Shown: positions 332 through 18,262 of the stretch, piece by piece
How positions within the stretch are numbered: position 1 is the stretch's first letter
Layout of the letters: the number at the start of each line of letters is the position of its first letter
Assembly (NCBI GenBank): GCA_963836185.1
Contig: CAWIIQ010000001.1
Location: forward strand, 1,376,001-1,440,000
Direction of reading: 5' to 3'
DNA: 64,000 bases
Source of the DNA: Candidatus Krumholzibacteriia bacterium
Lineage (GTDB): Bacteria; Krumholzibacteriota; Krumholzibacteriia; Krumholzibacteriales; Krumholzibacteriaceae
Position numbers and translations under genes: made by a program
The notes under the pieces: generated by a model
What the model was told of the DNA's origin: nothing
Seen by the model: the letters and a program-made list of their open reading frames with translations, nothing else
The model's database searches: none

Positions 332-1147
332 ATGTTCGATTACCTCCAATATATAAGAGAGTGGAACTTCCCCCATATCTGGTGCGCCGGATGCGGGCAC
401 GGAATAGTCCTCAAGTCGCTTCTGCGCACGATCGAAAAGCAGGGTATTTCCCAGGACGATACCGTCATGGTATCCGGTATCGGCTGCTCGAGCCGTACAC
501 CGGGATATGTCGATATCAATACACTTCACACGACGCACGGGCGGGCGCTCGCCTTTGCGACCGGTGTGAAGATGGCCAATCCGGACCTCAAGGTGATCGT
601 CATCACCGGCGACGGCGATGCTACAGCCATCGGCGGGAACCACTTCATCCACGCGGCGAGGCGCAATATCGACCTTACCGTTCTTCTCTATAACAACTAC
701 ATCTACGGGATGACAGGCGGGCAGTGCTCTCCGACGACTCCCAAGGGAGCGAAGGCGTCGACGGCGCAGTACGGAAACCTCGAGCCGACATTCAATATCA
801 GCGGCCTGGCCAAAGCAGCGGGCGCTGCGTTCGTCGCCAGGGGCGACGTTTACAATGTCAGGAGGCTCGATGGCCTTATCGAGAAGGCGATGGACAAGAA
901 GGGCTTTTCTCTTGTCGAGGTCGTCTCTCCCTGTCCGACCGCTTTCGGGCGCAGGAACAAGATGGCCAGCCCCGTCAAACTGATGGAGCAGCTCCGCGAC
1001 AGTGTTGTCACTGTCGAGAAGTGGGAGAAGATGACCGACGAGGAGCGAGTGGGCCATTTCAGGACGGGCATCCTGCAGGATATCGAGAAGCCGGAGTACA
1101 CCGAGGTATACGCAGAGTTCATTGCGAAGCTGAAGGCGGATAAATAA
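332..1147 (+). CDS. 2-oxoacid:ferredoxin oxidoreductase beta subunit (TPP-binding)
   Basis: WCAGCG, SGIGCS, HGRA, GDGD...NN, YGMTGGQ motifs. Confidence 0.95.
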   Translation: MFDYLQYIREWNFPHIWCAGCGHGIVLKSLLRTIEKQGISQDDTVMVSGIGCSSRTPGYVDINTLHTTHGRALAFATGVKMANPDLKVIVITGDGDATAIGGNHFIHAARRNIDLTVLLYNNYIYGMTGGQCSPTTPKGAKASTAQYGNLEPTFNISGLAKAAGAAFVARGDVYNVRRLDGLIEKAMDKKGFSLVEVVSPCPTAFGRRNKMASPVKLMEQLRDSVVTVEKWEKMTDEERVGHFRTGILQDIEKPEYTEVYAEFIAKLKADK

Positions 1148-1695
1148 TGGATAGATACGATGTGAGGCTCGGTGGTTCGGGTGGTCAGGGACTTATCCTC
1201 GCCGGCAAGATACTCGCCGAGGCCGCCGCCATATATGACGGACATAACGCAGTCCAGACGCAGAGCTACGGCCCCGAGGCGAGGGGAGGATCAAGCAAGG
1301 CGGAGGTAGTCATCAAGGACGGGGAGATAGATTATCCCAAGGCGATGGACCTCGACCTGCTTCTATCCCTGACTCAGGAGTCGTGTACCAAGTTCAGCAA
1401 GGACCTCAAGGACGACGGCATCCTGATCATCGACAGTGAGATGGTCACGGAGCCGCCGGAGGGAAGCTTCAGGATATTTGCCGCGCCTATCACCAGCATA
1501 GCGGCGAAAAAGGTCGGCAAGGTCGTAGTGACGAATATCGTAGCTCTCGGTATCCTCACCAGGCTCTCCGGTATAGTCACCGAGGAATCGATGAGAAAAG
1601 CGATACTTGCCCGCGTTCCGAAAGGAACGGAAGAGGTCAACATGAAGGCCTTCGATGAGGGCTGGAAGGCCGCCGAAGAACTGCTCGCTGAATAA
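1147..1695 (+). CDS. 2-oxoacid:ferredoxin oxidoreductase gamma subunit
   Basis: GSGGQG and QSYGPEARGG motifs; overlapping stop/start with beta. Confidence 0.95.
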   Translation: MDRYDVRLGGSGGQGLILAGKILAEAAAIYDGHNAVQTQSYGPEARGGSSKAEVVIKDGEIDYPKAMDLDLLLSLTQESCTKFSKDLKDDGILIIDSEMVTEPPEGSFRIFAAPITSIAAKKVGKVVVTNIVALGILTRLSGIVTEESMRKAILARVPKGTEEVNMKAFDEGWKAAEELLAE

Positions 1696-1799
1696 GGACC
1701 CAGGCCGGCCGTTACACCGGCCGGTTTAATATAAAGGACAGGGTAAGGCGCACGCCGTGCGTCATCAAAACACGGGGAAACCCGGGGAGGTTCGGTTCG

Positions 1800-3143
1800 A
1801 TGTCAGAGAAGATGACGAAGGAAGAACTGCTCGCCAAGTCCAAGCAGCCGGGAATCGACGCGATGAAGCTTCATCCGTTCTACAAGGGGAAGATCGCTTC
1901 CATGCCGAAATGCTGTATCAGGAACATCGATGATTTCGCGATATGGTACACGCCCGGCGTGGCCAAGCCGTGCCTCGATATCGCTGAGAATCCCGAGATG
2001 GTCTTCGAGCATACCAACAAGGCGAACTCGATCGCCGTCGTCTCTGACGGAACCCGCGTCCTCGGACTCGGCGACATCGGCCCCGAGGCGGCAATGCCTG
2101 TCATGGAGGGCAAGGCCCTGATCTTCAAGTACCTCGGTGGCGTCGATGCCACTCCCATCTGCCTTGACACTAAGGACCCCGACAAATTCATCGAGACAGT
2201 CAAGCTGCTGCAGCCCTCGTTCGGCGGCTTCAACCTCGAGGACATTTCACAGCCGAAATGCTTCCGTGTTCTCGATACGCTGCGGAAAGAGTGCCACGTA
2301 CCGGTATGGCACGATGACCAGCAGGGCACGGCGGCTGTTACCGTTGCCGGTCTTATCAACGCGGTCAAGATCGTCGACAAGAAGCTCAGCGAGGTAAAGG
2401 TCGCGATGCTCGGTGCGGGCGCCGCGAATATCTGCATCGCCAAGATGATCATCCTCGCCGGTGTCGAGCCGAAGAACATCGTCATGATGGACAGCAAGGG
2501 CATCCTCCACGAGAGCCGCGAGGCCGATCTGAAGGAGGCCTATGAGGAGAAGTGGGAGATGGCCCAGATCACGAACGGCGAGGGTCTCTCTGGCGGGCCG
2601 GAAGTCGCCATCAAGGGCGCCGACGTTCTCATCGCCCTCTCGAAGATCGGGCCGGACACGGTAAAGAAGGAATGGATCGCCTCGATGGCCGACGACTCGA
2701 TCGTGTTCGTCTGCGCCAACCCGATTCCCGAGATCTATCCCTGGGAGGCGAAAGAGGCCGGCGCGAGGATCGTCGCGACTGGCCGGAGCGATTTCCCCAA
2801 CCAGGTCAACAACTCTCTCGGATTCCCCGGTATCTTCCGCGGCACCCTCGACGTGATGGCCAAGACGATCACCGACGAGATGTGCGTTGCCGCAGCGGTC
2901 GAGCTGGCGAAGACAGCCGAGGACAACGGGATGCACGAGAACTACCTCGTTCCGACGATGGACGAGTGGGAAGTCTTCCCGCGCGAGGCCGCTGCGGTAG
3001 GCCGCAAGGCTATCGAGCAGGGTGTGGCGAGGCTTGATTTCACCTACGATGAGCTGTACAAGATGGCGGAGATGAAGATCAAGGCTGCCCGCGAAGCCTT
3101 CGATTCGCTTCAGAACAATGGATTCATCAAGATGCCCGAGTAG
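1800..3143 (+). CDS. NAD(P)-dependent malic enzyme
   Basis: YTPGVA, DGTRVLGLGDIG, NLEDI, HDDQQGTA, GAGAA, ATGRSDFPNQVNN. Confidence 0.95.
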   Translation: MSEKMTKEELLAKSKQPGIDAMKLHPFYKGKIASMPKCCIRNIDDFAIWYTPGVAKPCLDIAENPEMVFEHTNKANSIAVVSDGTRVLGLGDIGPEAAMPVMEGKALIFKYLGGVDATPICLDTKDPDKFIETVKLLQPSFGGFNLEDISQPKCFRVLDTLRKECHVPVWHDDQQGTAAVTVAGLINAVKIVDKKLSEVKVAMLGAGAANICIAKMIILAGVEPKNIVMMDSKGILHESREADLKEAYEEKWEMAQITNGEGLSGGPEVAIKGADVLIALSKIGPDTVKKEWIASMADDSIVFVCANPIPEIYPWEAKEAGARIVATGRSDFPNQVNNSLGFPGIFRGTLDVMAKTITDEMCVAAAVELAKTAEDNGMHENYLVPTMDEWEVFPREAAAVGRKAIEQGVARLDFTYDELYKMAEMKIKAAREAFDSLQNNGFIKMPE

Positions 3144-3248
3144 TGAAACGGGTAAATGGAAAAGCCTTGAACGAACCAGGCGAATAAACGAAATGGAGGC
3201 TGTCCGGCTGTTTAGCCTGGCGGCCTCCATCACAAGAAGGAGGAGAGG

Positions 3249-4361
3249 ATGTACAAGATCGCGTGGCTGCCCGGCGACGGCGTCGGAAACGAGGTCATGG
3301 AAGCAGCAAAGCTGGTGCTCGACGCACTGAAGCTCGACGCCGAGTATATCCCCGGCGATATCGGCTGGGAGTTCTGGAAGAGCGAGGGGAATCCCCTTCC
3401 TGACAGGACGATCGATCTCTGTAACAACACCGATTGCGCCCTATTCGGCGCGATCACTTCGAAGCCGCGCGACGAAGCGCTCGAGGAGCTCGCTCCCGAA
3501 CTGCGCGACAAGGGCTTCGCATACTCGAGCCCGATCGTGGCCCTGAGACAGAAGTTCGATCTGGGCGTAAACCTCAGGCCGTGTAAGGCCTTCCCCGGTA
3601 ACCCGCTGAACTTCAAGGAAGGCATCGACCTTGCCGTGTTCAGGGAGAACACTGAGGGCCTTTACGTAGGCGTCGAGTTCAATCCGGTCGAGGATGACAT
3701 GAAGGCGTTCCTCGACAGCAAGCACAAGAAATTCCACCGCTTCGTCGATACTCCGGGCGAGGATATGGCGATAAGCATGAGAATCTTTACGCGCAAAGGC
3801 TGCGAGAGGATCGTTCGCGCCGCGTTCGAATACGCGAAGAAGACGAACAGGCCTACGGTCACGATCGTCGAGAAGCCCAACGTGATCAGGGAGACGAGCG
3901 GGATGATGATCCGCGTCGCCCGCGAAGTCGCCAAAGACTTCCCCGGCATCGAGCTGTGGGAGACCAACATCGACGCGATGTGCATGTGGCTCGTAAAGAA
4001 TCCCGGCGACTACAGCGTTCTGGTAGCTTCGAACATGTTCGGTGATATCATCTCCGACCTCGCCGCGCAGCTCGTCGGCGGACTCGGTTTCGCCTCTTCG
4101 GCGAACATCGGCGAAAAGTACGCCGTATTCGAGCCGACTCACGGAAGCGCGCCTAAGTACTACGGACAGTACAAGGTCAACCCGATGGCGATGCTGCTTA
4201 CCACGCGTCTGATGCTCGAGTGGCTCGGCGAGATGGACATGGCGGCAAAGCTCGAGAAGGGTGTTTCGAAGACGATCTCGGATGGGAAGATACGCACATA
4301 CGATATGGGCGGCTCGAACACCACCCTAGAGATCGCAGAGGAAGTCGTAAGGAACATGTAA
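3249..4361 (+). CDS. Isocitrate/homoisocitrate/isopropylmalate dehydrogenase family (beta-decarboxylating)
   Basis: PGDGVG, RENTEGLY, KPNV, NMFGDIISD, FEPTHGSAP, NPMA. Confidence 0.92.
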   Translation: MYKIAWLPGDGVGNEVMEAAKLVLDALKLDAEYIPGDIGWEFWKSEGNPLPDRTIDLCNNTDCALFGAITSKPRDEALEELAPELRDKGFAYSSPIVALRQKFDLGVNLRPCKAFPGNPLNFKEGIDLAVFRENTEGLYVGVEFNPVEDDMKAFLDSKHKKFHRFVDTPGEDMAISMRIFTRKGCERIVRAAFEYAKKTNRPTVTIVEKPNVIRETSGMMIRVAREVAKDFPGIELWETNIDAMCMWLVKNPGDYSVLVASNMFGDIISDLAAQLVGGLGFASSANIGEKYAVFEPTHGSAPKYYGQYKVNPMAMLLTTRLMLEWLGEMDMAAKLEKGVSKTISDGKIRTYDMGGSNTTLEIAEEVVRNM

Positions 4362-4373
4362 CGGTTCAAACAT

Positions 4374-4403
4374 GAGGGCTGGCCCGGCGGGCCGGCCCTC
4401 TTT
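4374..4403 (+). terminator. GC-rich intercistronic hairpin with short T tail
   Basis: GAGGGCTGGCCC...GGGCCGGCCCTC-TTT between dehydrogenase and dehydratase genes. Confidence 0.45.
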
Positions 4404-4422
4404 CCGTTCAACGGGGGATCAG

Positions 4423-6330
4423 ATGGCAGGCAAGACTATTATCGAGAAGATCCTTTCCGCTCATGCGGGTAAGGAAGTTTCGGCCGGCGACGTAGTCTGG
4501 ATCGGGATCGACGTGCGCACGGCGAGGGACTTCGGCGGCGCAAGCGTCGTGAAGAACCTCAAGGAGAATTACGAGTCTCCCTGGATCGACGATCCGGCGA
4601 AGACCTGTTTCACCTTCGACTGTAACGTGCCGGCGAATACGACAGGGTACGCCGAGAACCAGCAGATATGCAGGGATTTCGCGAAGGAGACAGGCATCAG
4701 GGTTTACGACGTGAGAGCCGGTATCGGTTCGCATGTCGCGATGGAGCGCGGGTTGGCCAGGCCCGGCGAGATATTCGTCGGGACCGACAGCCACCTCAAC
4801 ATCATGGGAGCCGTCGGATGTTTCGGGCAGGGGATGGGCGACCGCGACATAGCTTACGTCTGGGGGTCCGGACGCAACTGGTTCGAAGTGCCCTCGTCTA
4901 TGAGAGTAGTCCTGGAAGGCTCGGTCGAGTATCCCGTCACGGCGAAAGATATTGCACTTGCCGTTATCAGCGAACTCGGTTCCGCCGGGGCACTCGGCAA
5001 GGTCATAGAGTTCTCAGGATCGGGTGCCGATTCTCTGAGTCTGTCAGGGCGTATAACGATTGCCAGCATGGCTACCGAGATGGGTGCTATTGCCGCCTTC
5101 CTTCCAGTCAGTGACGGGGTGGCGTCGTATATCGAAAAACGGTCAGGGGGAGGAAAGGTCGAGACAGTCACCGCCGATGTTGACGCCTCGTACGATTCCT
5201 CGATCACTATCGACCTCAACGGCCTCGAGCCTCTCGCTGCCTGTCCTTCCAGCCCATCGAACGTAAAAAAGATAAGCGAGGTTGCCGGTACGAAGATCGA
5301 CACCGCGATCATCGCCTCATGCACGAACGGCCGTTTCGAGGACATGGTACATGCCGCATCGATACTGAAGGGTAAGAGGATCAAGGACGGCACGAGCCTC
5401 AAGGTCGTCCCGGCGACAGAAGAGGTCTACGAAAGGATGCTCGAGGAAGGGATACTGAAGATATTCATTGCCGCCGGCGCACTGGTGACCAACCCGGGAT
5501 GCGGCGGTTGCGCTTCGGGACAGCTCGGAATGGTCGGCAAGGGCGAGATCCAGCTGAGCACCTCGAACAGAAACTTCGCCGGCAAGCAAGGGAAGGGCGA
5601 GACATACCTTGTCAGTCCAGCAGTCGCCGCGGCGTCGATCATCGCCGGTGAGATCACCTCTCCGGTCGGAATGGATATCGAACTGATCGATTTCGTTCCC
5701 GACGAGGAGTTCGACGGAGAACCAGCCCTGGAGGCTATCTCCTGGCTTGGCGAGGGAAAGGCATCTGGCAGGCCTGTACCGAAGTCCCACGCGGGCGAGA
5801 CCGTCGACTGTCCGAAGGTCCTGAAAGGCAGGGCGAGGATCATCACCGAACCTGACGGACGCCTGATGGACGACATCGACACCGACATGATCTTCCATAA
5901 CAAGTACCTCGCGATCACCGAGATCGCGAAGATGGGCAAGCATACATTCGAGACGCTCGACGGGTACGAGGAATTCGCGGCGAGCGTTGAGCCGGGCGAT
6001 ATCATCATCGCAGGCGGCAACTTCGGCTGCGGTTCATCGCGCCAGGCTGCCGTTGACTGTTTTATCCCTCTCGGTGTAAAACTCGTTATCACCGCTTCGA
6101 CCGGGGCGATATACAAGCGCAACATCATCAATTCGGGATTCCCCTTCCTCGAGGTTTCCGCTCTTCACGAGGCGGGAATAGAGGAGGGTATGGAGATCGA
6201 GATCGATTTCGAGAAGGGAACGATCACCCTGCCCGGCGGTAAGGTCATCGAAGCTGACAAACCTACCTCTGTTCAGCTCGATATCTGTCGTGCCGGCGGG
6301 CTTTTCGCCTATACGGGAGAGGAGGATTGA
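4423..6330 (+). CDS. Fused LeuC-LeuD-type [4Fe-4S] aconitase-family dehydratase
   Basis: Start MAGKTIIEKIL at 4423; GTDSH, SCTNGR, CGGC ligands; C-terminal swivel domain DIDTD...GGNFGCGSSR. Confidence 0.9.
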   Translation: MAGKTIIEKILSAHAGKEVSAGDVVWIGIDVRTARDFGGASVVKNLKENYESPWIDDPAKTCFTFDCNVPANTTGYAENQQICRDFAKETGIRVYDVRAGIGSHVAMERGLARPGEIFVGTDSHLNIMGAVGCFGQGMGDRDIAYVWGSGRNWFEVPSSMRVVLEGSVEYPVTAKDIALAVISELGSAGALGKVIEFSGSGADSLSLSGRITIASMATEMGAIAAFLPVSDGVASYIEKRSGGGKVETVTADVDASYDSSITIDLNGLEPLAACPSSPSNVKKISEVAGTKIDTAIIASCTNGRFEDMVHAASILKGKRIKDGTSLKVVPATEEVYERMLEEGILKIFIAAGALVTNPGCGGCASGQLGMVGKGEIQLSTSNRNFAGKQGKGETYLVSPAVAAASIIAGEITSPVGMDIELIDFVPDEEFDGEPALEAISWLGEGKASGRPVPKSHAGETVDCPKVLKGRARIITEPDGRLMDDIDTDMIFHNKYLAITEIAKMGKHTFETLDGYEEFAASVEPGDIIIAGGNFGCGSSRQAAVDCFIPLGVKLVITASTGAIYKRNIINSGFPFLEVSALHEAGIEEGMEIEIDFEKGTITLPGGKVIEADKPTSVQLDICRAGGLFAYTGEED

Positions 6331-6331
6331 T

Positions 6332-7585
6332 ATGGGCGCTAACATGATCGAGAAGATCCTGGCGAGAGCTTCGGGGAACGTCGATGTCCATGTCGGGGAT
6401 ATCGTCTTCGCGAAACCTCACATGATACTCTCTCATGACAATTCGGCGGCGATCCTGAAGATCTTCGAGGGCCTCGGCGGGAAGAAGGTCTGGGACCCGG
6501 GCCGTGTCTTTATCGCCCTGGACCACGCCGTTCCACCCCCCGATCACAAGAAGGCGAACAATCACAAGATGATCCGTGAGTTCGTCGAGAAGAACGGCAT
6601 CACAAACTTTTTTGACTGCGGCTGTGGTATCTGCCACCAAGTCCTTCCCGAGGAGGGACTCGTAGAACCCGGAACGGTCATCTTCGGATCAGATTCGCAC
6701 ACAACGACGCACGGCGCGCTCGGGGCGGCCGGTATCCCGATCGGCAGGACCGAGACGGCAAGCGTCTGGGCACTCGGTGAGACATGGCTAAAGGTGCCGC
6801 CGACGATAAAATTCGTGCTGAATGGTGAGCTGCGCGAGGGAGTCGTGGCGAAAGACATAGTGCTCTATCTCATAGGGCAGATAACAGCTGACGGTGCGAC
6901 ATACAAAGCGGTCGAGTTCCACGGCCCCGTCGTCGAAAAGATGAGTATGGGCGGGAGGCTTACTCTCTGCAACATGGCGGCCGAGATGGGCGCCAAGGCG
7001 GGAATGGTACCTTTCGACGATGTCACGGCCGAGTTTCTCAAGGGAAGGCTGAGCGGTGATTTCGAGACGGGTAATCCCGACGATGACGCCGAATACGAAT
7101 CGATCCTCGCGATAGACTGCTCGATGATAGGCCCGCAGGTGGCGAGGCCCCACAAGGTCGACAATGTCGTCGCGGCGGCCGACCTCGAAGAGACGAAGAT
7201 CGATGTCGCGCTCCTCGGGACATGCACCAACGGAAGGCTCGAGGACCTGCACCAGGCTGCGGAGATCCTGAAAGGCAGGAAGATCGCTCCCGGGGTGAGG
7301 CTTCTGGTCTATCCCGCCTCGCGAGGTATCCTCGACGAGGCTAACCGTGACGGGACATCATCGATCCTGCTTGAAGCGGGAGCCCAGGTAGCGGTGCCGG
7401 CATGTGGCCCCTGTCTTGGAGCATACGGCGGAGTCCTTGCCCCCGGCGAGAACTGCGTCTCCACGGCTAACAGGAACTTCAAGGGACGGATGGGATGCAA
7501 GGAAGACACGGGAATCTACCTCGCCAGCCCGGCGACAGTAGCACTTTCCGCAATAGAAGGCAGGATAGTATCCCCGTACGTCTGA
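6332..7585 (+). CDS. 3-isopropylmalate dehydratase/homoaconitase large subunit
   Basis: Start MGANMIEKIL after AGGAGG; SHDN, LDH, GICHQ, GSDSHT, GTCTNGR, CGPC, STANRNF. Confidence 0.92.
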   Translation: MGANMIEKILARASGNVDVHVGDIVFAKPHMILSHDNSAAILKIFEGLGGKKVWDPGRVFIALDHAVPPPDHKKANNHKMIREFVEKNGITNFFDCGCGICHQVLPEEGLVEPGTVIFGSDSHTTTHGALGAAGIPIGRTETASVWALGETWLKVPPTIKFVLNGELREGVVAKDIVLYLIGQITADGATYKAVEFHGPVVEKMSMGGRLTLCNMAAEMGAKAGMVPFDDVTAEFLKGRLSGDFETGNPDDDAEYESILAIDCSMIGPQVARPHKVDNVVAAADLEETKIDVALLGTCTNGRLEDLHQAAEILKGRKIAPGVRLLVYPASRGILDEANRDGTSSILLEAGAQVAVPACGPCLGAYGGVLAPGENCVSTANRNFKGRMGCKEDTGIYLASPATVALSAIEGRIVSPYV

Positions 7586-7604
7586 CGGGAGGGAGGATAC
7601 CGAG

Positions 7605-8114
7605 ATGGAGATAAAAGGAAGAGTCTGGATCCTCGATGATGACGACATAAACACCGACGTCATCTATCCCGGCAAGTACACCTACGAGCTCTTCTCCAAC
7701 GAGGAGATGGCAAGTCACGCCATGGAGGATTTCGACCCCGAATTCGCCTCTAAAGTAGGTGAAGGTGACGTCATAATTGCCGGTAAAAACTTCGGTTGCG
7801 GCTCGTCACGCGAGCAGGCAGTGACCTGCCTGAAGTACTCCGGAGTAGGGGCGATAGTGGCAGCGTCGTACGCGAGGATCTACTACCGCAACGCGATCAA
7901 CCAGGCCCTCTACGCGATCGAATGCCCTGAGGCCTCGGACTACGCGAGAGCTCACAAGGACGAGCTTTCGGGGAGCGAGATCACACTCGATCCCGCTGAA
8001 GGCACGATGACGCTCGGCGGACAGGAGTTCAGCTTCTCGCCGATGTCTGGGAAGGCAAGGGAGATCTTCGACGCGGGCGGACTGGCCGAGTATACGAAGA
8101 AGAAGCTCGGTTAG
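7605..8114 (+). CDS. 3-isopropylmalate dehydratase/homoaconitase small subunit
   Basis: DINTDVIYPGKY, GKNFGCGSSREQA, ARIYYRNAIN. Confidence 0.92.
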   Translation: MEIKGRVWILDDDDINTDVIYPGKYTYELFSNEEMASHAMEDFDPEFASKVGEGDVIIAGKNFGCGSSREQAVTCLKYSGVGAIVAASYARIYYRNAINQALYAIECPEASDYARAHKDELSGSEITLDPAEGTMTLGGQEFSFSPMSGKAREIFDAGGLAEYTKKKLG

Positions 8115-8153: not shown

Positions 8154-10130
8154 TTACTCCTGCCGGCCTTTTACGTCGGAGGCGCACCTGAAGCCGACTG
8201 CGATATCGACCCAGGAGTACTTGACCGCGTTTCTCGTATAGACGTTGCAGCACATCCTGCCCGAGTGCCATCCGCCTCCTCTTATCACGGCGATATACCC
8301 CTTCTCCGGGCCTGTCGGATTCTTGTACGGGCTTGTTTTGTAGAAGTCGGGGTGGAAGTAATCGTTCACCCACTCGACTACATTCCCTGACATATCATAC
8401 AGACCGTATCCGTTAGGCGGATAGCATCCGACCGGAACGGTGCCGATGAAGTTCGGGCCGACGCGGTAGTTCCCGTCGGTCGGCAGAAGCTCATCACCAG
8501 TGGGGAACTTGACGCCAATCAGGCCGCCTCTCGCGGCCAGCTCCCACTCTGCCTCTGTCGGGATGCGTTTACCTGCCCACTTGGCGTAAAGGCGCGCCTG
8601 GGAGAGGCTCACTCCTACGACAGGATAGTCGGGCCAGTCGGGGCCGCAGTGGTACTCGTCCATCCCCCAGAACTCGGGCCAGTTCTTTCCAGTCTCCTCA
8701 CAGAACCGCTGGTACTGCGCATTGGTGACCTCGTACCTGTCGATATAGAATGAATCGACGAAGACCTTGTGAGCCGGATCGTACAGTCCGTTTTCCTCAC
8801 CGCCCATGATGAATTCCGATGCGGGGACAAGCACCATATCCATCAGGGCCAGGGTTCCAGGGGGGATCGCCAGCGCTGTATCGAGCGGCGCGTCATACCC
8901 CGTAGTATGGTCTTTCCAGGTCTCCCGTATATGGATATCGAGAGGGAGCCAGGGCGAATCGGCAAGCCTGGCAACGGTGCGGTGAAAAGCTGTCGAGCAG
9001 TTGACCCTGACGCCCGAGTTCGGAAGCCTGAATGTCACTATGGATGAGCTGAGGTTTGGCGCCCCGCGCGGGAGCTCCCCGGCAAGTGTCACGCTGTCTT
9101 CCTCGCCGAGCCTCGCCGCTATCTCGACAGCGGCGCAGCATGTCTCGCGGTCCACGAGTACTACGATGTCCCTTACCGGCTGAGCGGATTTCCATTCGAG
9201 CGCACCTTCTACGAACGAATCGACGAGCGTCCCGCTTCTGCTTGTAGAACCGCGCAGGTCCAGGATCATCCTCGAAATACCTGCGTTCTCGAGTTCGGCA
9301 AGGCTCTCGGCGATGATCTCTTCTGTGTCCGGCGCGCCGTCATCGGGCCCGAAATATCTCAGTACAGCTGCAGGATTGTCGCCCTCGGCAATATCGATCA
9401 CAACAGCCTGGGTAGTTCCGACCGGGCGCAGCATCGCCTTGCCCTGAAGTGAGGTCGTGGTCCAGCCAGTATTATTGAAGGAGCTTGGAGGGATGGTCGC
9501 GAGGCTGACCTCGATCTCGATGCCGTCGTCACCGGTGAAGCACCGCGTCGACAGTGAATCTGTCGACTGCGAATCCAAGTACGTCAAGCACTTCTCCGTA
9601 CGATATCCATTCCGGGACCGAGACGAGCCATTCGGCATAGTTGTCGCGCGATATGAGGGGGCGGACGGCGGACACTGCTTTGGAGACAGGCTTTCCGCCG
9701 ATCGAGGTGAGTGTCTTCCCTGCTGCATTCTCGTATCCCGGCGCGGCGGAGACGACCCTCAGTTCACTGCCGAAATATCTCAGCTCGACAGGCAGGCGCG
9801 TGAAATGAGTATCGAGCCATTCACGTTCGATCGCTGTCGATCCGTCGCCGATCATCGCGAGAACGCGGCTCAGTTCGACCAGTATCCTTCTCGTTCTCCC
9901 AGTGGCCCGAGGCTGTCGACGAGTGCTGCCCTGGCATCACTCAGTTTATCTTCGGTGGTATTGCGGTAGAGGCCGGGATGTTCCCGGTCAAGGCGGGTGA
10001 ACAGGTCGTTGATGTCGGACTGCCAGAGTCCCGGCACCATGTGCTGTTTTCCCTCGCGGTCACCGCTGCTGCATCCGGCGGCTGCGAGAAAGAGAAAGAG
10101 GACGAACAGGGTCGTGCAAAACGATCTCAT
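8154..10130 (-). CDS. Lipoprotein with degenerate S41-peptidase-like region and C-terminal FGE/SUMF1-family domain; split by two frameshifts (~9890, ~9540)
   Basis: Lipobox LAAAGC; HPGLY; IGDGST; ILDLRG; FGE motifs YEVTNAQY, PVVGVS, RIPTEAEWE, NGYGLYDMSGNVVEW, RGGGW, GFRC; ORFs 9870-10130, 9529-9855, 8154-9728 read as one protein. Confidence 0.75.
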
Positions 10131-10149: not shown

Positions 10150-10383
10150 TCATTTCATCTCGCGCACAAGGCGGGGGATCTCTCCTTCTTCAGGAAACCT
10201 GTTGCAGACTTCGCGATCCTTTTCATAGATCACGGTATCGTCCGCGGTCACTTCGAAGATGCCGCCTTTTCCCCCGATGAGCTCGACGGTCGAACCGGGG
10301 AACTCGCTGAGCAGTTCAGCCTCCACACGGGAGGCTTCGGCGTTGTAGTCTCAAGGTACGCAGTATTCGATTCGGAATTTCAT
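10150..10383 (-). CDS. Rdx/SelW (SelT/SelW/SelH) family selenoprotein, 77 aa, in-frame UGA = Sec
   Basis: MKFRIEYCVP-U-DYNAEASRVEAELLSEFPGSTVELIGGKGGIFEVTADDTVIYEKDREVCNRFPEEGEIPRLVREMK; AGGAG RBS; IEYCxxU, GGxGGxFEV and RFPE motifs; TGA at 10351-10353. Confidence 0.92.
10318..10336 (-). promoter_or_regulatory. Bacterial SECIS element
   Basis: AGCCUCC-CGUGU-GGAGGCU: 7-bp stem starting 14 nt after the UGA, with GU in the apical loop. Confidence 0.75.
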
Positions 10384-10418
10384 CTGGTCTCCTCTTCCGG
10401 TATACACCTGAAGTGCTT

Positions 10419-10754
10419 TTAGTATCCAGCCTTCTCCGGCGGACGCCTCTCGGGAACGTACTCGTGGGGGATCATTTCCTCGTTCCATTCCTTAGAGACA
10501 TAGAGGCTGCAGTAGCAGCTCCCGAACTCGGCGACATCCGGCTCGCGGTAATCGCATGGACAGCATATGTCGTGGTCCTGCTCGCGATCGCCGCTGGCAA
10601 GGCGGCAAGGGCAGCAGAAGAAACCGTAGCGTTCCTTGTTCGTCAGCAGCCCTTCGAGCAGGCCCATCGTGAGATCAATGTCTTCGTTGAAGAAGTAGCC
10701 CTTCTTCTCCTGAAGTGGCTTGAGCCGTTCGTACAGTTTTTGAGCTTCCGTCAT
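10419..10754 (-). CDS. Ferredoxin:thioredoxin reductase catalytic-subunit family protein
   Basis: NKERYG..CPCR, DICCPC, GSCYCSLY (CPC/CPC/CxC signature), VPERRP tail. Confidence 0.92.
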   Translation of the reverse strand: MTEAQKLYERLKPLQEKKGYFFNEDIDLTMGLLEGLLTNKERYGFFCCPCRLASGDREQDHDICCPCDYREPDVAEFGSCYCSLYVSKEWNEEMIPHEYVPERRPPEKAGY

Positions 10755-11008
10755 TCCAGACCCAGCGCTTCCCGGATCTCTCTCTCCTGGAATCCGACTA
10801 TGACCGTCTCGCCGATCTGTATGGTGGGGTAGGAGACCCTCGAGTTGAGCTTTCTGACTTCCTCAACGATAGCGCGCCGCTCATCGCCTGTGAGGAGGTC
10901 GACATCTGTGGCCTCGAACTCGATCCCCTGACTGGTGAAGAACTCCTTTGTCCGCCTGCAGTGGCTGCAGGTACTGAGTGTATACATCCTGACGGTTATG
11001 TCGGTCAA
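10751..11008 (-). CDS. Glutaredoxin (NrdH/YruB-like)
   Basis: YTLSTCSHC, SYPTI, IVGF; TTG start after GAGGAGG; overlaps FTR start. Confidence 0.9.
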   Translation of the reverse strand: MTDITVRMYTLSTCSHCRRTKEFFTSQGIEFEATDVDLLTGDERRAIVEEVRKLNSRVSYPTIQIGETVIVGFQEREIREALGLE

Positions 11009-11308
11009 ACCGGTCCTCCTCGGGTTAGAAATGCGTTAATGTGCGGCCGGCTGAAATCCCTCCATGCGCCATATGGCGCATGTGCAGGGCGAAAACCGAA
11101 CCGGGCAGAAGGATTCTTACACAGAGCAGGGGCTGATGTAAAGGAAATGCAAGTTTTTACTCGACTTTCACACGTAAATCGTTATTGTACTGTGTGCACA
11201 TCGGTTTCCCCTGCGCCCGCCGGCGCATCACGGGGCCGATTCTTGCCAATTACAACTATAACTTTTTCGTATAAGAACCCCTTACGGGACAAAGACGGGA
11301 GTAGTTCG

Positions 11309-14300
11309 ATGAGCAGAAAGATGGTGACGATCGACGGAAACGAAGCAACGACCTATTCGGCTCACAAGCTGAACGAGGTCTGCGCGATCTATCCGATCAC
11401 TCCGTCGTCAGCCATGGGCGAATTCGCTGACCAGTGGTCCGCCGACGGCAGGACGAACATCTGGGGTACGATCCCCAACGTGACGGAGATGCAGAGTGAG
11501 GGAGGGGCAGCGGCGGCCGTACACGGCGCGCTTCAGCGCGGCGCTCTGACGACGACTTTTACCGCGTCCCAGGGACTGCTCCTGATGATCCCGAGCATGT
11601 ACAAGATCGCCGGCGAGCTTACGCCGACTGTCTTCCATGTCTCGGCCAGGTCGCTCGCGACCCACGCCCTGTCGATCTTCGGTGATCACAGCGACGTGAT
11701 GGCTGTACGCCAGACCGGTTTCGCCCTCCTTTCATCGAACTCGGTACAGGAAGCGATGGATATGGCTGCAATAGCCCAGATGGCCACCCTCGAGTCCCGC
11801 GTTCCCTTCCTTCATTTCTTCGACGGATTCAGGACCTCGCACGAGGTCGACAAGGTCGAACTGATCGAGGACGACCAGTACAGAGAACTGATCGACGAGG
11901 ACCTCGTAAGGGCACATCGCGACAGGGCGATGAGTCCCGACAAGCCGGTCCTTCGCGGCACCGCTCAGAATCCCGACGCCTACTTCCAGGCGCGCGAGAC
12001 GATCAACCCGTTCTACAACGCCTGCGCCGGCATCGTCATGGATGCGATGAAGAAGTTCGAGAAGGTCGTCGGCCGCAAGTACGAAATATTCCAGTATTAC
12101 GGCGCACCAGATGCCGAGAAGGTCATCATCGTAATGGGCTCCGGCGCCGAGACGGTGCAGGAGACCGTCGACTACGTCAACTCGAACGGACAGAAGGTCG
12201 GCATGGTTAAGGTGAGGCTCTTCAGACCTTTCGATGTAGACAGTTTCATAAACGCGATCCCTGCCAGCGCGAAGATGCTCGGCGTCCTCGACAGGACGAA
12301 GGAGCCCGGCGCGATCGGCGAGCCGCTCTACCAGGACGTCCTGACCGCGCTGGCCGAGAAGCACGAGCTTACAATGTCGCGCTTCAAGGATGGAATCGCC
12401 GTCACAGGCGGAAGGTACGGGCTCTCCTCGAAAGAGTTTACGCCCGCCATGGTCATGGCCGTTCTGGACAACATGTCCGCCAAGGACCAGAAGAACCACT
12501 TCACCGTCGGTATCGATGACGATGTCACGCACATGAGCCTCGATTATGACAAGGATTTCCTCGTCAAGCATCCGAATCAGACGAGGGCGGTCTTCTTCGG
12601 GCTCGGTTCCGATGGAACGGTCGGCGCTAACAAGAACTCTATCAAGATCATTGGTGAGGGAACCGACATGTACGCGCAGGGCTACTTCGTATACGATTCG
12701 AAGAAGGCCGGCTCGGTCACAGAGTCGCACCTGCGCTTCGGCAAGGACGAGATCCACTCGCCCTACCTGATCGCAAAGGCCGACTTTGTAGCATGTCACC
12801 TGTTCCCCTTCATGGAGAGGATCGATATCCTCAAGTACGCGACAGAGGGAGGGACCTTCCTTCTCAACAGCCCCTTCCCCGCAGATGAGACCTGGGACCT
12901 GCTGACATACGAGGTCCAGAAGGCGATCATCGACAAGAAGCTCGAGTTCTACGTGATCGACGCCAACGAGATCGCCACCGAGCTGGGGCTAGGGGGCAGG
13001 ATCAACACGATCATGCAGACCGGCTTCTTCATCCTCGGCGGAGTACTCCCCAAGGAAGAGGCGATCGAAGCGATCAAGAAGTCGATCAAGAAGACATACG
13101 GACGCCGCGGCGAGAAGGTCGTCAAGATGAACGAAGCGGCCGTCGACGCTACCGAGGCGAACCTGCACAAGATCGAGGTTCCTGCCGAGCCGACGAGCAA
13201 GCTGCACATGATCCCGCCGGTACCCGAGGATTCACCCGAGTACGTGCGTGAGGTCATCGGAAAGCAGATCGCCCGTGACGGAAACGATATTCCGGTCAGC
13301 GCGTTCGCTCCCGACGGTTCGTTCCCTACAGGGACGACGAAGTACGAGAAGCGCAACATCGCCCTCGAGATCCCCGTCTGGGATCCCGACGTCTGTATCC
13401 AGTGCGGCAAGTGCGTTCTTATATGCCCCCACGCAGTAATCAGGGCGAAAGTCTATGACGCCGACAAACTCGAAGGCGCACCCGAGACCTTCAAGTCGGC
13501 CGACGCGGTTGCGAAGGATTTCAAGGGCAAGAAGTTTACAATACAGGTGGCTCCCGAGGACTGCACAGGCTGTACCCTCTGCTTCCAGACCTGTCCTGCC
13601 AAGAACAAGGAAGAGGAAGGGAAGAAGGCGCTCAACATGGCGCTGCAGCCCCCTCTGAGGGCGACGGAGAAGCCGAACTGGGAGTTCTTCAAGGGCCTCC
13701 CGTACATCGACCGCGGAGAGATCAATGCGACCGCTACGAGGACCGTACAGTTCCTCGAGCCTCTCTTCGAGTTCTCCGGCGCCTGCGCAGGATGCGGCGA
13801 GACGCCGTACGTGAAGCTGCTTACCCAGCTCTACGGCGACCGCACCATGATCGGGAACGCCACGGGCTGCTCCTCGATCTACGGAGGCAACCTGCCGGCG
13901 ACACCGTACACGATGGACAAGAACGGACGCGGCGTTACCTGGAGCAACTCGCTCTTCGAGGACGCTGCCGAGTTCGCGTTCGGTATGAGGCTCGGTCTGG
14001 ACAAGCAGATCGAGTATGCAAGCGAGATGGTACAGAGAGTCTCCGGCCAGATCGGTGACGAACTGACGAAGGGGATCCTCGAAGCGGACATGAGCGACGA
14101 GAACGGTATCCGCGAGCAGAGGGCAAGAGTCGTCGCCCTTCGCGAGAAACTTGCCGCTATCGATACGCCTGACGCGAAGAACCTCGCCGGCCTCGCAGAT
14201 GTCCTCGTCAGGAAGAGCGTATGGGCGCTTGGAGGCGACGGATGGGCATACGATATCGGGTACGGCGGCCTCGATCACTCGCTGGCGCTGGGGCGTAACC

Positions 14301-14899
14301 TCAACGTGCTGGTGATGGACACCGAGATCTACTCGAACACGGGCGGCCAGATGTCGAAGGCGACGCCGATGGGTGCGATCGCGAAGTTCGCTGCCGCCGG
14401 CAAGCAGATGCCGAAGAAGGACCTCGCAATGATGATGATGTCGTACGGATACATCTACGTCGCGAGGATCGCGTTCGGCGCCAACGAAGGCCAGGCGATC
14501 AAGGCATTCATCGAGGCGGAGGCCTACGATGGACCGTCGATCATCATCGCCTACTCGCACTGCATCGGGCAGGGCCTCGACATGAGGCGCGGGCTCGACC
14601 AGCAGGCGCTGGCCGTCAAGACGGGTTACTGGCCGCTGGTCAGGTACAACCCCGACCTGCGCAGCGAGGGCAAGAATCCTCTGCAGCTCGACTCGAAGGC
14701 CCCGAGCATCCCGCTCGAGGATTACATCTACAACGAGAACCGCTACCGCGCCGTCAAGGCGAGGGACCCGGAGATGGCTGCCGACCTTCTGAAGAGGGCG
14801 CAGGCAGACGTCGAACCGCCGCTGGAAACTCTACGAGTACTGGGCCGCGATGCCCGGGCCCGATGCAGAATCCAAGTAGCATCCGGAGCGGATAGATGA
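11309..14899 (+). CDS. nifJ: Pyruvate:ferredoxin/flavodoxin oxidoreductase (homodimeric)
   Basis: Start MSRKMVTIDGNEA at 11309; YPITPS, EMQSEGGA, two CxxCxxC..CP ferredoxin motifs, FSGACAGCGE, GGDGWAYDIG; true C-terminus probably ends 14879 (frameshift). Confidence 0.96.
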   Translation: MSRKMVTIDGNEATTYSAHKLNEVCAIYPITPSSAMGEFADQWSADGRTNIWGTIPNVTEMQSEGGAAAAVHGALQRGALTTTFTASQGLLLMIPSMYKIAGELTPTVFHVSARSLATHALSIFGDHSDVMAVRQTGFALLSSNSVQEAMDMAAIAQMATLESRVPFLHFFDGFRTSHEVDKVELIEDDQYRELIDEDLVRAHRDRAMSPDKPVLRGTAQNPDAYFQARETINPFYNACAGIVMDAMKKFEKVVGRKYEIFQYYGAPDAEKVIIVMGSGAETVQETVDYVNSNGQKVGMVKVRLFRPFDVDSFINAIPASAKMLGVLDRTKEPGAIGEPLYQDVLTALAEKHELTMSRFKDGIAVTGGRYGLSSKEFTPAMVMAVLDNMSAKDQKNHFTVGIDDDVTHMSLDYDKDFLVKHPNQTRAVFFGLGSDGTVGANKNSIKIIGEGTDMYAQGYFVYDSKKAGSVTESHLRFGKDEIHSPYLIAKADFVACHLFPFMERIDILKYATEGGTFLLNSPFPADETWDLLTYEVQKAIIDKKLEFYVIDANEIATELGLGGRINTIMQTGFFILGGVLPKEEAIEAIKKSIKKTYGRRGEKVVKMNEAAVDATEANLHKIEVPAEPTSKLHMIPPVPEDSPEYVREVIGKQIARDGNDIPVSAFAPDGSFPTGTTKYEKRNIALEIPVWDPDVCIQCGKCVLICPHAVIRAKVYDADKLEGAPETFKSADAVAKDFKGKKFTIQVAPEDCTGCTLCFQTCPAKNKEEEGKKALNMALQPPLRATEKPNWEFFKGLPYIDRGEINATATRTVQFLEPLFEFSGACAGCGETPYVKLLTQLYGDRTMIGNATGCSSIYGGNLPATPYTMDKNGRGVTWSNSLFEDAAEFAFGMRLGLDKQIEYASEMVQRVSGQIGDELTKGILEADMSDENGIREQRARVVALREKLAAIDTPDAKNLAGLADVLVRKSVWALGGDGWAYDIGYGGLDHSLALGRNLNVLVMDTEIYSNTGGQMSKATPMGAIAKFAAAGKQMPKKDLAMMMMSYGYIYVARIAFGANEGQAIKAFIEAEAYDGPSIIIAYSHCIGQGLDMRRGLDQQALAVKTGYWPLVRYNPDLRSEGKNPLQLDSKAPSIPLEDYIYNENRYRAVKARDPEMAADLLKRAQADVEPPLETLRVLGRDARARCRIQVASGADR

Positions 14900-16654: not shown

Positions 16655-18262
16655 TTATTTTGGAACGGGTTTGAAGATCGTGTCGAGTATCGTCCCGTCT
16701 CTCCACTCGACGACCTCGACCGGCTCGTCGGTCAGTTCTGGAAGAGGGGGAGTCGAGCCGAACTCGGCCGCCGCTTTTATTGCAAGGTCGCGGAGCTCCT
16801 CTATCGTTACAACCTTGAGGCCGCTCGCCGCGGCATTATTTTTCAGGGCGCCCATGTACTTCGCTTCCGACTTCGGATTGAATGCGACGTACTCCTCGGT
16901 CACCGCGACATCGATACACTCGCCCGGTACCGATACGGTGTAGACGCTGTCGACTATCCTCGGGAATCCCTTGCCGCTCTCCTTCTTGCCCGTTGCCAGC
17001 GGGAGGAACATGATCGTCAGCTCGGAGCCCGCCGCGACGCCCTGCGCGCCGCCGATGCCGCCGATGATCCGGCCGCCCGCGCAGATCGAGTTGACGTTGA
17101 AGTCAGTATCCATCTCGAGTGTGGAGAGGACCGAGACATCGAGCATGTTCACAGCGTTTTCTCTATTGGCCATGTCGTCGTATTCACCGGTCGATATCTC
17201 GTGGTGGTTGTGGTCGAGGAGCATCGATTTGATGACCCGCTCCGACGGTTCGAAGCACTGCCCGTGAAGGAGGTTCTCGATCAGGCCCTCCTGGAGCATC
17301 TCGACGTGCAGCGATGTGCAGCCGCCGATCGAGAAACCGGACTGGATCTTCTTCTCGATGAGGATCTTCTTGATCTCGTCGAGGACGATCAGCCCCGCGC
17401 CCGAGCCTACCTGGAAATTAAACCCGTCGAAGATCACCTCGGCGGCATTCATCACATTCAGTACCTGTCCAGCGATCTGCGAGTTGAACGCGTTCGCCCT
17501 TATCCTCTCTATGTCCAGGGTGCCCGAGCCGACACCGGAGGCATCGCCCGGATTGTCGACCTTGACTACGTAGTCGACGTCGACCATCGAGAGGGAGCGG
17601 GGGAAGAGGTACTTATCGCTGATCTCGCCGGCGAGCAGGCAGACGTTCTCCGCCCAGAGGGTATCGGCGAGGAAGAGGCCGAGCGGGCCGACCCACGAGT
17701 CGGGATCGCCCATAAGTCCGTTGGCGTTTCCCCACTGGTCGGCGATCGGTACGGGGCCGAAGGCGACCTTGATCTTCGCCTCGCCTGTATGGAAGCGCCT
17801 TACCCTGTTGCCGTGCCCGTACCCGGTGACGATCCAGGGAAGGAAGTCGCCCGCCATCATATGAGCGCCCATCTTGCGGTAGCACGATCCGTTTATCCCC
17901 GTGATCGTCCCGTCGGCGATAGCTTCGGGGAGCCATGGGACGCAGTTGTCGAAGAAGGCGTTGCCGAGGAGCTTGATATCCTTCAGGCCCTTCTCCCTGA
18001 GCTTTGCCACGATGATCTCGAGACAGTGGTCGCCGAGGCGGTAGTAATGCGGGTACGATATCCAGTCACCGTCCTGGAGTATATCGATGACCTCATCGAG
18101 AGTCGTGACCTTGCTCTTTCCGCTTCTCATCTTCGCGCGGCCGGGGCGTCCGGCGTAGGGGTCGCTGTAAGCGGGATCGAAGGCCTGGCTGAAGGGCTTC
18201 TTTTCTACGCCGTTGACCACGGCAGGGACCCTGCGTCCGAGAGAGTTCTTGACGAAATCCAT
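16655..18262 (-). CDS. citF: Citrate lyase alpha subunit / citrate CoA-transferase family
   Basis: KNSLGRRVP, ISYPHYYRLGD, ADQWGNANG, FQVGSG, LDVSVLSTLEMDTDFNVN, GGIGG, VVEWRDGTILD. Confidence 0.85.
   Translation of the reverse strand: MDFVKNSLGRRVPAVVNGVEKKPFSQAFDPAYSDPYAGRPGRAKMRSGKSKVTTLDEVIDILQDGDWISYPHYYRLGDHCLEIIVAKLREKGLKDIKLLGNAFFDNCVPWLPEAIADGTITGINGSCYRKMGAHMMAGDFLPWIVTGYGHGNRVRRFHTGEAKIKVAFGPVPIADQWGNANGLMGDPDSWVGPLGLFLADTLWAENVCLLAGEISDKYLFPRSLSMVDVDYVVKVDNPGDASGVGSGTLDIERIRANAFNSQIAGQVLNVMNAAEVIFDGFNFQVGSGAGLIVLDEIKKILIEKKIQSGFSIGGCTSLHVEMLQEGLIENLLHGQCFEPSERVIKSMLLDHNHHEISTGEYDDMANRENAVNMLDVSVLSTLEMDTDFNVNSICAGGRIIGGIGGAQGVAAGSELTIMFLPLATGKKESGKGFPRIVDSVYTVSVPGECIDVAVTEEYVAFNPKSEAKYMGALKNNAAASGLKVVTIEELRDLAIKAAAEFGSTPPLPELTDEPVEVVEWRDGTILDTIFKPVPK

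What the first reader, a model, noticed from the sequence alone, without database searches (positions are those of the whole stretch)
10150..11309. Candidate ferredoxin-driven thiol/selenol relay: Grx - FTR - selenoprotein operon divergent from PFOR
Seen: glutaredoxin (CSHC) overlapping an FTR catalytic subunit with no variable subunit, then the Sec-containing Rdx protein 35 nt downstream, sharing a 300-bp divergent promoter region with nifJ. Known: PFOR yields reduced ferredoxin, FTR-family enzymes pass those electrons to disulfides, and Grx+FTR pairs occur in anaerobes. Inference: an NADPH-independent chain PFOR > Fd > FTR > Grx/Rdx-Sec, which would give the poorly understood bacterial Rdx family an electron donor and might reactivate oxidised PFOR. 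This is my best candidate for an undescribed system here.
Basis: partly seen in the sequence, partly recalled or inferred. Interest (0 to 1): 0.75.

Follow-up and report, generated by a model that had tools for sequence, protein, structure and literature searches.

The report
Ferredoxin disulfide reductase pair, dispensable selenoprotein
Two overlapping genes encode a known kind of enzyme pair that likely uses ferredoxin to repair protein disulfides in anaerobes, while the real selenoprotein gene beside them is a neighbour in only a few close relatives and likely not a fixed part of that chain.

Summary
The locus holds a glutaredoxin (CSHC) overlapping an FTR-type gene, a CVPU Rdx selenoprotein gene 35 nt downstream, and nifJ 300 bp away head-to-head. 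The selenocysteine reading is well supported: a covarying SECIS-like hairpin, selA, tRNA-Sec, and an in-frame TGA in 105 of 106 Rdx matches across the phylum.

The conserved unit is only Grx + FTR. It is an FDR/methanoredoxin-type pair, already solved as a fusion (PDB 7PWE), and adjacent in 17 of 17, 75 of 80 and 56 of 60 loci.

Rdx is not a conserved member:
- It is adjacent in 3 of 7 congeners, and one congener keeps a deletion scar.
- It is adjacent in 0 of 12 genomes of another phylum that carry both genes.
- 99 of 104 Rdx-bearing genomes of this phylum show no FTR.

nifJ adjacency is confined to this genus plus one relative. This PFOR lacks the Cys-bearing tail that protects D. africanus PFOR. 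The genome also encodes an NADPH-type thioredoxin reductase.

PFOR > Fd > FDR > Grx is likely; an extension to Rdx is about 15–20% likely. The scan noted other Grx–FTR pairs before on other DNA. Verdict: a new member of a known kind.

The parts
10751..11008 (-). Glutaredoxin-like (NrdH/methanoredoxin-type) redoxin, 85 aa, CSHC; the only PF00462 match in the genome
   Evidence: (3NZN E 3.6e-19, 5CAX E 1.5e-17, 7PWE residues 1-84 E 7.3e-15)
10419..10754 (-). Ferredoxin:disulfide reductase (FDR-type FTR catalytic subunit), 111 aa, CPC/CPC/CYC, no rubredoxin domain; ATGA overlap with grx
   Evidence: (7PWE residues 86-191 E 2.9e-41; 4TPU E 1.6e-32; plant/cyanobacterial FTR only E about 1e-5)
10150..10383 (-). 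Rdx (SelW-like) selenoprotein, 77 aa, CVPU, Sec codon TGA at 10351-10353
10318..10336 (-). Predicted bacterial SECIS hairpin, 7-bp stem and 5-nt loop with invariant G-U, 14 nt after the UGA
10399..10408 (-). Possible internal promoter -10 element between FTR and Rdx (degenerate here; TATAAC/TATAAT in four congeners, with or without Rdx)
   Evidence: inferred, not shown
10152..10385 (-). 9-nt direct repeat at both ends of the Rdx gene (10377-10385 and 10152-10160), a possible substrate for precise loss
11009..11308 (.). 300-bp divergent intergenic region; sigma70-like site 11142-11113 (-) facing grx; perfect 20-bp palindrome 11063-11082; core about 11135-11260 conserved in the genus
11309..14899 (+). 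nifJ pyruvate:ferredoxin oxidoreductase; frame break near 14820-14830 in this assembly, homologous tail ends at about 14879 and has no Cys
8154..10130 (-). Downstream lipoprotein-like gene with a C-terminal FGE-sulfatase domain, in frame pieces here; follows FTR in 7 of 8 nifJ-linked loci (in the eighth, G002, the contig ends inside Rdx)

Best explanation
The overlapping grx and ftr genes are a conserved FDR-glutaredoxin pair that likely passes electrons from reduced ferredoxin to protein disulfides without NADPH or glutathione, and the Rdx selenoprotein gene beside them is a lineage-restricted neighbour that likely is not a required link in that chain. Mechanism, step by step. (1) PFOR, encoded head-to-head, is a likely source of reduced ferredoxin (inferred); a small 2[4Fe-4S] ferredoxin is encoded elsewhere, at C1:1061.8 kb. 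(2) The [4Fe-4S]/disulfide site of the FDR would turn two one-electron transfers into a dithiol (established chemistry of the family; the motifs are present). (3) The FDR would reduce the CSHC disulfide of its cognate Grx (inferred from translational overlap, near-universal pairing and natural fusions). (4) The Grx would reduce client disulfides; the likely clients are oxidised proteins after O2 exposure and the genome's CC-type class III ribonucleotide reductase (inferred). The Rdx is predicted to be a translated selenoprotein, possibly from its own promoter, and could be reduced by the NTR/Trx system or by this Grx as one client among many.
For: Pairing: Grx directly upstream of FTR in 17 of 17 relatives' loci, 8 of 8 further phylum loci, 75 of the 80 best GTDB loci and 56 of 60 evenly drawn loci of another phylum. 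Fusions: G015/L013, L108 and L109, and PDB 7PWE, which matches both window proteins. No glutathione synthetase or BshC was found in G000 (92.5% complete), which leaves FDR as the obvious reductant of the only Grx. Rdx is dispensable: it was not found in G003-G006, which keep selA and the grx-ftr-nifJ block, and G003 keeps a 13-of-16-nt remnant of the Rdx 3' end at the expected place. Rdx is independent of FTR: both genes occur in 5 of 151 phylum genomes against 15.8 expected, and in 12 of 201 genomes of the second phylum against 12.5 expected, none of the 12 adjacent. Clients: O2-defence or Fe-S assembly genes lie within 5 kb in 9 of 60 and 5 of 80 loci. NrdD with SMCCR is in G000 and in 13 of 17 FTR-bearing relatives. 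[quoted passage not shown]
Against: No biochemistry or expression data. Rdx lies on the same strand 35 nt after FTR with no terminator-like site between them, is kept in frame with an intact UGA and hairpin in 3 congeners, and may have been ancestral at this site in the genus, so co-transcription and local coupling are not excluded. PMC7278568 (passages) says methanoredoxin used coenzyme M as reductant in the insulin assay, so direct FDR-to-Grx transfer is not shown for every such pair by what I could read. The NrdD link is weak: p 0.08 within the order, kin are not independent, and 7 of 20 NrdD genomes have no FTR found. Five of 80 and 3 of 60 FTR loci had no Grx hit, and one more of the 60 gave no FTR hit by tblastn.
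Confidence: 0.68

Rival explanations
1. One reading: in G000, G001 and G002 the three genes form one operon, and Rdx-Sec is a dedicated downstream acceptor (Fd > FDR > Grx > Rdx, or FDR > Rdx directly) that was later lost in sister species.
For: Same strand, 35-nt gap, no terminator-like site. Conserved in 3 of 7 congeners, with a deletion scar in G003 that points to earlier presence. Rdx has a thioredoxin-like CxxU site.
Against: No adjacency outside the genus: 0 of 60 loci and 1 of 80, which is on the opposite strand 677 bp away. G015 and G018 have both genes unlinked. 99 of 104 Rdx genomes lack FTR. A TATAA(C/T) element sits between FTR and the next gene in congeners. The extra-Cys hint failed in a second phylum.
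Confidence: 0.2
2. The pair exists mainly to feed the anaerobic (class III) ribonucleotide reductase with electrons from pyruvate oxidation, as in the Methanosarcina FDR-NrdH-NrdD route, rather than for general disulfide repair.
For: G000 NrdD has YCVGW and SMCCR, and 20 of 22 NrdD loci from relatives show SMCCR, the other 2 being C-terminal fragments. PMC4493059 (passages) ties the extra Cys to protein-reductant-dependent NrdD2/3. 13 of 17 FTR genomes have NrdD.
Against: NrdD is far away (C1:162-164 kb). 4 of 17 FTR genomes have no NrdD found and 7 of 20 NrdD genomes no FTR. No NrdD lies within 5 kb of 60 FTR loci. An NTR with an HRR motif and several Trx are available. I did not test the Glu that separates NrdD2 from NrdD3.
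Confidence: 0.25
3. The module reactivates O2-oxidised PFOR through a protective disulfide, as thioredoxin does for Desulfovibrio PFOR.
For: Head-to-head position kept in 8 of 17 relatives' FTR loci. PMC13768988 (passages) describes the reversible domain VII disulfide.
Against: The PFOR tail of G000 and of three congeners ends about 20 residues after the last helix and holds no Cys; it is nearer in length to 6CIN (1171 aa) than to 1B0P (1231 aa). nifJ is next to FTR in 0 of 60 and 0 of 78 loci outside this lineage.
Confidence: 0.06
4. The Rdx ORF is a pseudogene with a premature stop, not a selenoprotein.
For: The gene is lost in sister species. selB is in frame pieces in this assembly.
Against: The TGA is at the catalytic position in 105 of 106 phylum matches, the hairpin covaries, and selA, Sec-type selD and tRNA-Sec are present. 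Similar frame breaks hit nrdD, nrdJ, rbr, dfx, nifS and nifJ, which points to assembly indels.
Confidence: 0.03

Closest known systems
Glutaredoxin-FDR fusion protein, PDB 7PWE (196 aa; recalled as from Desulfotalea psychrophila, paper not held)
   Same: Residues 1-84 match the window Grx (E 7.3e-15) and 86-191 match the window FTR (E 2.9e-41); same order, same CPC/CPC/CYC motifs, no rubredoxin domain.
   Different: Two overlapping genes here rather than a fusion (a fusion exists in family member G015); followed by an Rdx selenoprotein gene in three species.
Methanosarcina ferredoxin:disulfide reductase (FDR, PDB 4TPU) with methanoredoxin/NrdH-type redoxin (5CAX, 3NZN; names of these entries partly recalled)
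   Same: FTR-like catalytic domain with CYC, no variable subunit, paired with a small Grx-like protein.
   Different: 4TPU is 173 aa and labelled rubredoxin; the window protein is 111 aa and ends after the catalytic domain. There is no coenzyme M context, and clients here are untested.
Plant/cyanobacterial ferredoxin:thioredoxin reductase (1DJ7, 2PVD)
   Same: Same fold family and six-cysteine layout.
   Different: Only distant (E about 1e-5), CHC instead of CYC, has a variable subunit, and acts on thioredoxins. PMC9025218 (passages) states FTRv is exclusive to oxygenic phototrophs, so its absence here is normal.
Bacterial SelW-like / Rdx selenoproteins (PF10262, TIGR02174; 2FA8, 2OBK)
   Same: CxxU motif, small thioredoxin-like protein, in-frame UGA with downstream hairpin; listed as a predicted prokaryotic selenoprotein family in PMC9312934 (table passage) and PMC1088965 (passages).
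   Different: Sits behind grx-ftr only in this genus and has an extra Cys60. No reductant or substrate for the bacterial family turned up in my searches.
FtrB family double-selenoprotein (NCBIfam NF041072) with Sec-redoxin partners
   Same: FTR-type reductase paired with a small redoxin in a selenium context.
   Different: The window FTR scores 53.4 bits against a cut-off of 160 and has no Sec; the Grx is all-Cys.

Membership tests
FDR-type FTR catalytic subunit | FeThRed_B domain above cut-off with six conserved Cys (CPC, CPC, CxC) | tested here: met
   72.6 bits vs 22; C48, C50, C65, C67, C80, C82 invariant in 11 of 11
FDR-type FTR catalytic subunit | CYC in place of the CHC of plant FTR; closer to 4TPU/7PWE than to 1DJ7 | tested here: met
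FDR-type FTR catalytic subunit | Paired or fused with a Grx/NrdH-like redoxin | tested here: met
Methanosarcina FDR (4TPU architecture) | C-terminal rubredoxin domain | tested here: not met
   111 aa vs 173 aa; no rubredoxin Pfam hit; same as the FDR half of 7PWE
FDR-type FTR catalytic subunit | [4Fe-4S] cluster and ferredoxin-dependent disulfide reduction | not testable with these tools
   needs biochemistry
Plant-type heterodimeric FTR | Variable subunit and His in CHC | tested here: not met
   CYC; no such gene among adjacent ORFs; genome-wide search for FTRv not run
Rdx / SelW-like selenoprotein | PF10262/TIGR02174 above cut-off with CxxU | tested here: met
   64.5 vs 22.6 bits; 47.2 vs 34.2 bits
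Rdx / SelW-like selenoprotein | Bacterial SECIS-like hairpin with G in a small loop just after UGA | tested here: met
   features as described in PMC1088965 (passages)
Rdx / SelW-like selenoprotein | Host has selA, selB, selD, tRNA-Sec | tested here: inconclusive
   selA, selD and tRNA-Sec present; selB present but in frame pieces in this assembly
NF041072 FtrB double-selenoprotein | Score above 160 bits; two Sec | tested here: not met
   53.4 bits, no in-frame TGA
Disulfide-protected PFOR (D. africanus type) | C-terminal domain VII with a cysteine pair | tested here: not met
   no Cys in the tails of G000, G003, G004, G006
Conserved three-gene Grx-FTR-Rdx system | Linkage recurs across lineages | tested here: not met
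   3 of 7 congeners; none outside the genus as an operon
NrdD3 / FDR-NrdH route | NrdD with the third Cys and without the active-site Glu | tested here: inconclusive
   SMCCR and YCVGW present; Glu not checked

The most novel reading that the evidence does not exclude
In one Krumholzibacteriota genus a SelW-like selenoprotein has been recruited behind the Grx-FDR pair and is reduced by it with electrons from pyruvate via ferredoxin, giving the first defined reductant for a bacterial Rdx protein. More widely, Grx-FDR pairs are repeatedly placed head-to-head with a ferredoxin-reducing enzyme (nifJ here, CO dehydrogenase in 17 of 78 other close loci) because they are co-regulated with their electron source.
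Probability: 0.17. Interest if true: 0.58.

Novelty: new member of a known kind. Interest (0 to 1): 0.27.

Why it matters
As it stands, it adds a Krumholzibacteriota example to the known FDR-glutaredoxin pairs of anaerobes and corrects an easily missed selenoprotein gene. If the Rdx were shown to be reduced by FDR or its Grx, it would give the bacterial SelW-like family, for which my searches found no described reductant, a first electron donor and an easy three-protein assay. The surveys show that this could hold only locally, since most Rdx-bearing genomes of the phylum have no FTR.

Tried and rejected
1. Extra Cys60 of the Rdx as a sign of co-evolution with FTR. Among 14 Rdx genes of the 41 relatives it occurred in the 5 genomes with FTR and in none of the 9 without. 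In the second sample 0 of 13 Rdx from FTR-bearing genomes had it. The script counted 1 of 32 from genomes without FTR, and six more of those show a Cys there by eye. Rejected.

2. General enrichment of ferredoxin-reducing enzymes near Grx-FTR. CO dehydrogenase is head-to-head in 17 of 78 best-hit loci, but the label is clustered on the tree and one origin is not ruled out. In the evenly drawn sample only 4 of 60 loci, one of them the centre genome, have CODH or an oxoacid oxidoreductase within 5 kb. Kept as a weak hint. (CODH positions) was cut at 150 rows, so I did not use it for counts.

3. Loss of Rdx through loss of the Sec trait: rejected, selA in 41 of 41.

4. Shared nifJ/grx operator: the conserved intergenic core has no second copy in the genome, and the 20-bp palindrome is perfect only in G000. 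Not established.

5. No complex prediction of FTR with Rdx was obtained, so binding is untested. The single-sequence Rdx model was poor (pLDDT 56.8) and was not used.

6. Expression: no RNA holder listed.

7. Metagenome scan with the Rdx C-terminal part gave 1 relative among 595 candidates (L128); its contig starts just upstream of Rdx, so it says nothing on FTR linkage.

8. The genus tree is weakly supported, so the number of Rdx losses (one gain and one loss, or two or more losses) is open. The FTR tree is the quick version, and its group label for L011 (G000) is a parsing slip: it is a nifJ locus.

9. Papers not held: Prakash 2018, Wei 2015, the 7PWE paper; I saw only titles in reference lists or nothing. 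Literature searches listed no paper linking FTR/FDR to Rdx/SelW; subscription journals are mostly not covered.
Full report
OBSERVATION. On the minus strand lie a glutaredoxin (10751-11008, CSHC), an FTR-type gene (10419-10754) overlapping it by ATGA, and 35 nt further an Rdx gene (10150-10383) with TGA at 10351-10353 in a C-V-P-U motif. nifJ starts at 11309 on the plus strand, 300 bp from the grx start. Pfam and NCBIfam confirm PF00462, PF02943, PF10262/TIGR02174 and TIGR02176. Each of the three small families has one match in the genome. The organism is most likely Ca. Krumholzibacteriota: the FTR of a record with that title is identical to that of congener G005.

THE SELENOPROTEIN IS REAL. 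A 7-bp hairpin begins 14 nt after the UGA. Across 7 Rdx genes, 93.9% of cells pair, three of seven pairs change on both sides, the loop keeps G-U, and slid controls reach at most 55%. This fits the bacterial SECIS features given in PMC1088965 (passages). tRNA-Sec, selA and a Sec-type selD are present. selB is present but in frame pieces, like several other genes of this assembly. In 151 phylum genomes 105 of 106 Rdx matches carry one in-frame TGA.

WHAT GRX AND FTR ARE. The best PDB match of the FTR is 7PWE residues 86-191 (E 2.9e-41), then 4TPU (E 1.6e-32); plant and cyanobacterial FTRs are distant and have CHC where the window has CYC. The Grx matches 3NZN, 5CAX, 3IC4 and 7PWE residues 1-84. 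So 7PWE is a natural fusion of exactly these two proteins. That it comes from Desulfotalea psychrophila is recalled; the paper was not held. PMC7278568 (passages) lists FDRs as [4Fe-4S] ferredoxin:disulfide reductases and methanoredoxin as a Grx-like protein. PMC9025218 (passages) says the variable subunit is exclusive to oxygenic phototrophs, so its absence is ordinary. The pair is very stable: Grx is upstream in 17 of 17, 8 of 8, 75 of 80 and 56 of 60 loci, with fusions in L013, L108 and L109. No glutathione synthetase or BshC was found in G000, which is 92.5% complete.

IS RDX PART OF IT? Among 41 genomes (G000 and 40 relatives) FTR was found in 17 and Rdx in 14. Both were found in 5, and they are adjacent in 3 (G000, G001, G002); in G015 and G018 they are unlinked. 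G003-G006 keep grx-ftr-nifJ and selA but have no Rdx found. G003 retains the leader and a 13-of-16-nt match to the Rdx 3' end, which indicates loss by deletion, and the G000 gene has a 9-nt direct repeat at both ends. The genus tree places G003 among the Rdx carriers with weak support. In 151 phylum genomes FTR is in 23, Rdx in 104 and both in 5 (15.8 expected; kin are not independent). In 201 genomes of the phylum of G156 (a Desulfobacteraceae record) FTR is in 60, Rdx in 42 and both in 12 (12.5 expected); no Rdx lies within the fetched flanks of the 60 FTR loci (some flanks are cut by contig ends). Among the 80 best GTDB loci, of 597 found, one has an Rdx nearby, on the opposite strand. A TATAA(C/T) element follows the FTR stop in four congeners with or without Rdx and is degenerate in G000. 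Such elements are enriched upstream of genes in this genome (GTATAA[TC]: 31 sense, 20 antisense, 4 inside genes, over 2267 rough gene calls), so Rdx may have its own promoter. In favour of linkage: same strand, short gap, no terminator-like site. An extra Cys in Rdx that seemed to track FTR failed in the second phylum.

IS PFOR PART OF IT? nifJ is head-to-head in 7 of 7 congeners and G008, that is 8 of 17 FTR loci, and in none of 78 and none of 60 loci outside this lineage. CO dehydrogenase takes the same head-to-head place in 17 of those 78, but only 4 of 60 evenly drawn loci have any ferredoxin-reducing enzyme of the kinds tested within 5 kb. PFOR as an electron source is therefore plausible on general grounds and weakly supported by position. 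Reactivation is not supported: the protective disulfide of D. africanus PFOR is in domain VII (PMC13768988, passages), whereas the tails of G000, G003, G004 and G006 are short and Cys-free. The cell does not depend on this route for thiols: it has a TrxR above the TIGR01292 cut-off with an HRR motif (NADPH-binding role recalled) and several Trx.

LIKELY CLIENTS. O2-defence or Fe-S assembly genes flank Grx-FTR in 9 of 60 and 5 of 80 loci. G000 has a class III RNR with YCVGW and SMCCR, the pattern that PMC4493059 (passages) ties to protein-reductant use. PMC9176816 (passages) gives a glutaredoxin-like NrdH as the NrdD3 reductant and cites Wei 2015 on FDR (title only; not held). NrdD occurs in 13 of 17 FTR-bearing relatives (p 0.08 within the order), but 7 of 20 NrdD genomes have no FTR.

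MECHANISM AND VERDICT. Shown: the genes, motifs, pairing, fusions, the Sec signal and the patchy Rdx linkage. Inferred: Fd > FDR > Grx > client disulfides, with PFOR as one ferredoxin reducer. Not supported as a conserved system: the step to Rdx, and PFOR reactivation. Literature searches listed no paper on an FDR-Rdx link, within a library that lacks most subscription papers; no supplements were read. Earlier notes of this scan describe other Grx-FTR pairs with Sec in other positions (not checked by me), and none on this sequence. The locus is a new member of the known FDR-glutaredoxin kind, with a genus-limited selenoprotein neighbour. Interest 0.27; the relay to Rdx has about 17% probability and would merit about 0.58.

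Noticed in passing
L034, L043, L070, L093, L097 and 12 more loci: Grx-FTR lies head-to-head with a CO dehydrogenase (Prismane/CODH family) gene in 17 of 78 loci outside this lineage, mostly Desulfobacterales, often with a DUF255 thioredoxin-domain gene between; only 2 of 60 in the evenly drawn sample.
   Followed up: partly
L013:1171-1815 (G015); L108; L109: Natural Grx-FTR fusion genes like PDB 7PWE; the G015 one is in the window's own family.
   Followed up: partly
L028 (G018) and L031 (G015): Their Rdx selenoprotein genes carry a CC pair before the RFP motif and lie upstream of genes that look like hdrC/hdrB (names recalled from the sequence pattern; Pfam gave only a 4Fe-4S dicluster hit for the first).
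   Followed up: partly
G000 C1:1061.8-1063.1 kb: A small 2[4Fe-4S] ferredoxin gene lies directly upstream of a Sec-containing selD.
   Followed up: no
L008 (G003), just after the FTR stop: The last 18 nt of the FTR gene are repeated about five times in tandem, followed by a remnant of the deleted Rdx gene.
   Followed up: partly
window 24422-24519: tRNA-Sec gene in the window, 14 kb from the Rdx gene, overlapping a chance ORF.
   Followed up: yes
window 8154-10130 (-), about 14820 (+); G000 nrdD, nrdJ, selB, rbr, dfx, nifS: Many genes show frame breaks while congeners checked for nifJ, nrdD and the lipoprotein are intact, which points to indel errors in this assembly; apparent pseudogenes here should be distrusted.
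   Followed up: partly
window 1-8114: Oxoacid:ferredoxin oxidoreductase genes, a malic enzyme, an isocitrate/isopropylmalate dehydrogenase and two aconitase-family large/small sets (one fused) precede the locus, so the region is a central-carbon cluster.
   Followed up: no
window 16655-18262 (-): Citrate lyase alpha (CitF)-like gene downstream of nifJ.
   Followed up: no
L146, L159, L178, L155, L166, L170, L172, L184: In several genomes of the second phylum Grx-FTR sits within clusters of rubrerythrin, desulfoferrodoxin, rubredoxin, flavodiiron protein, peroxiredoxin or NifU/NifS genes.
   Followed up: yes
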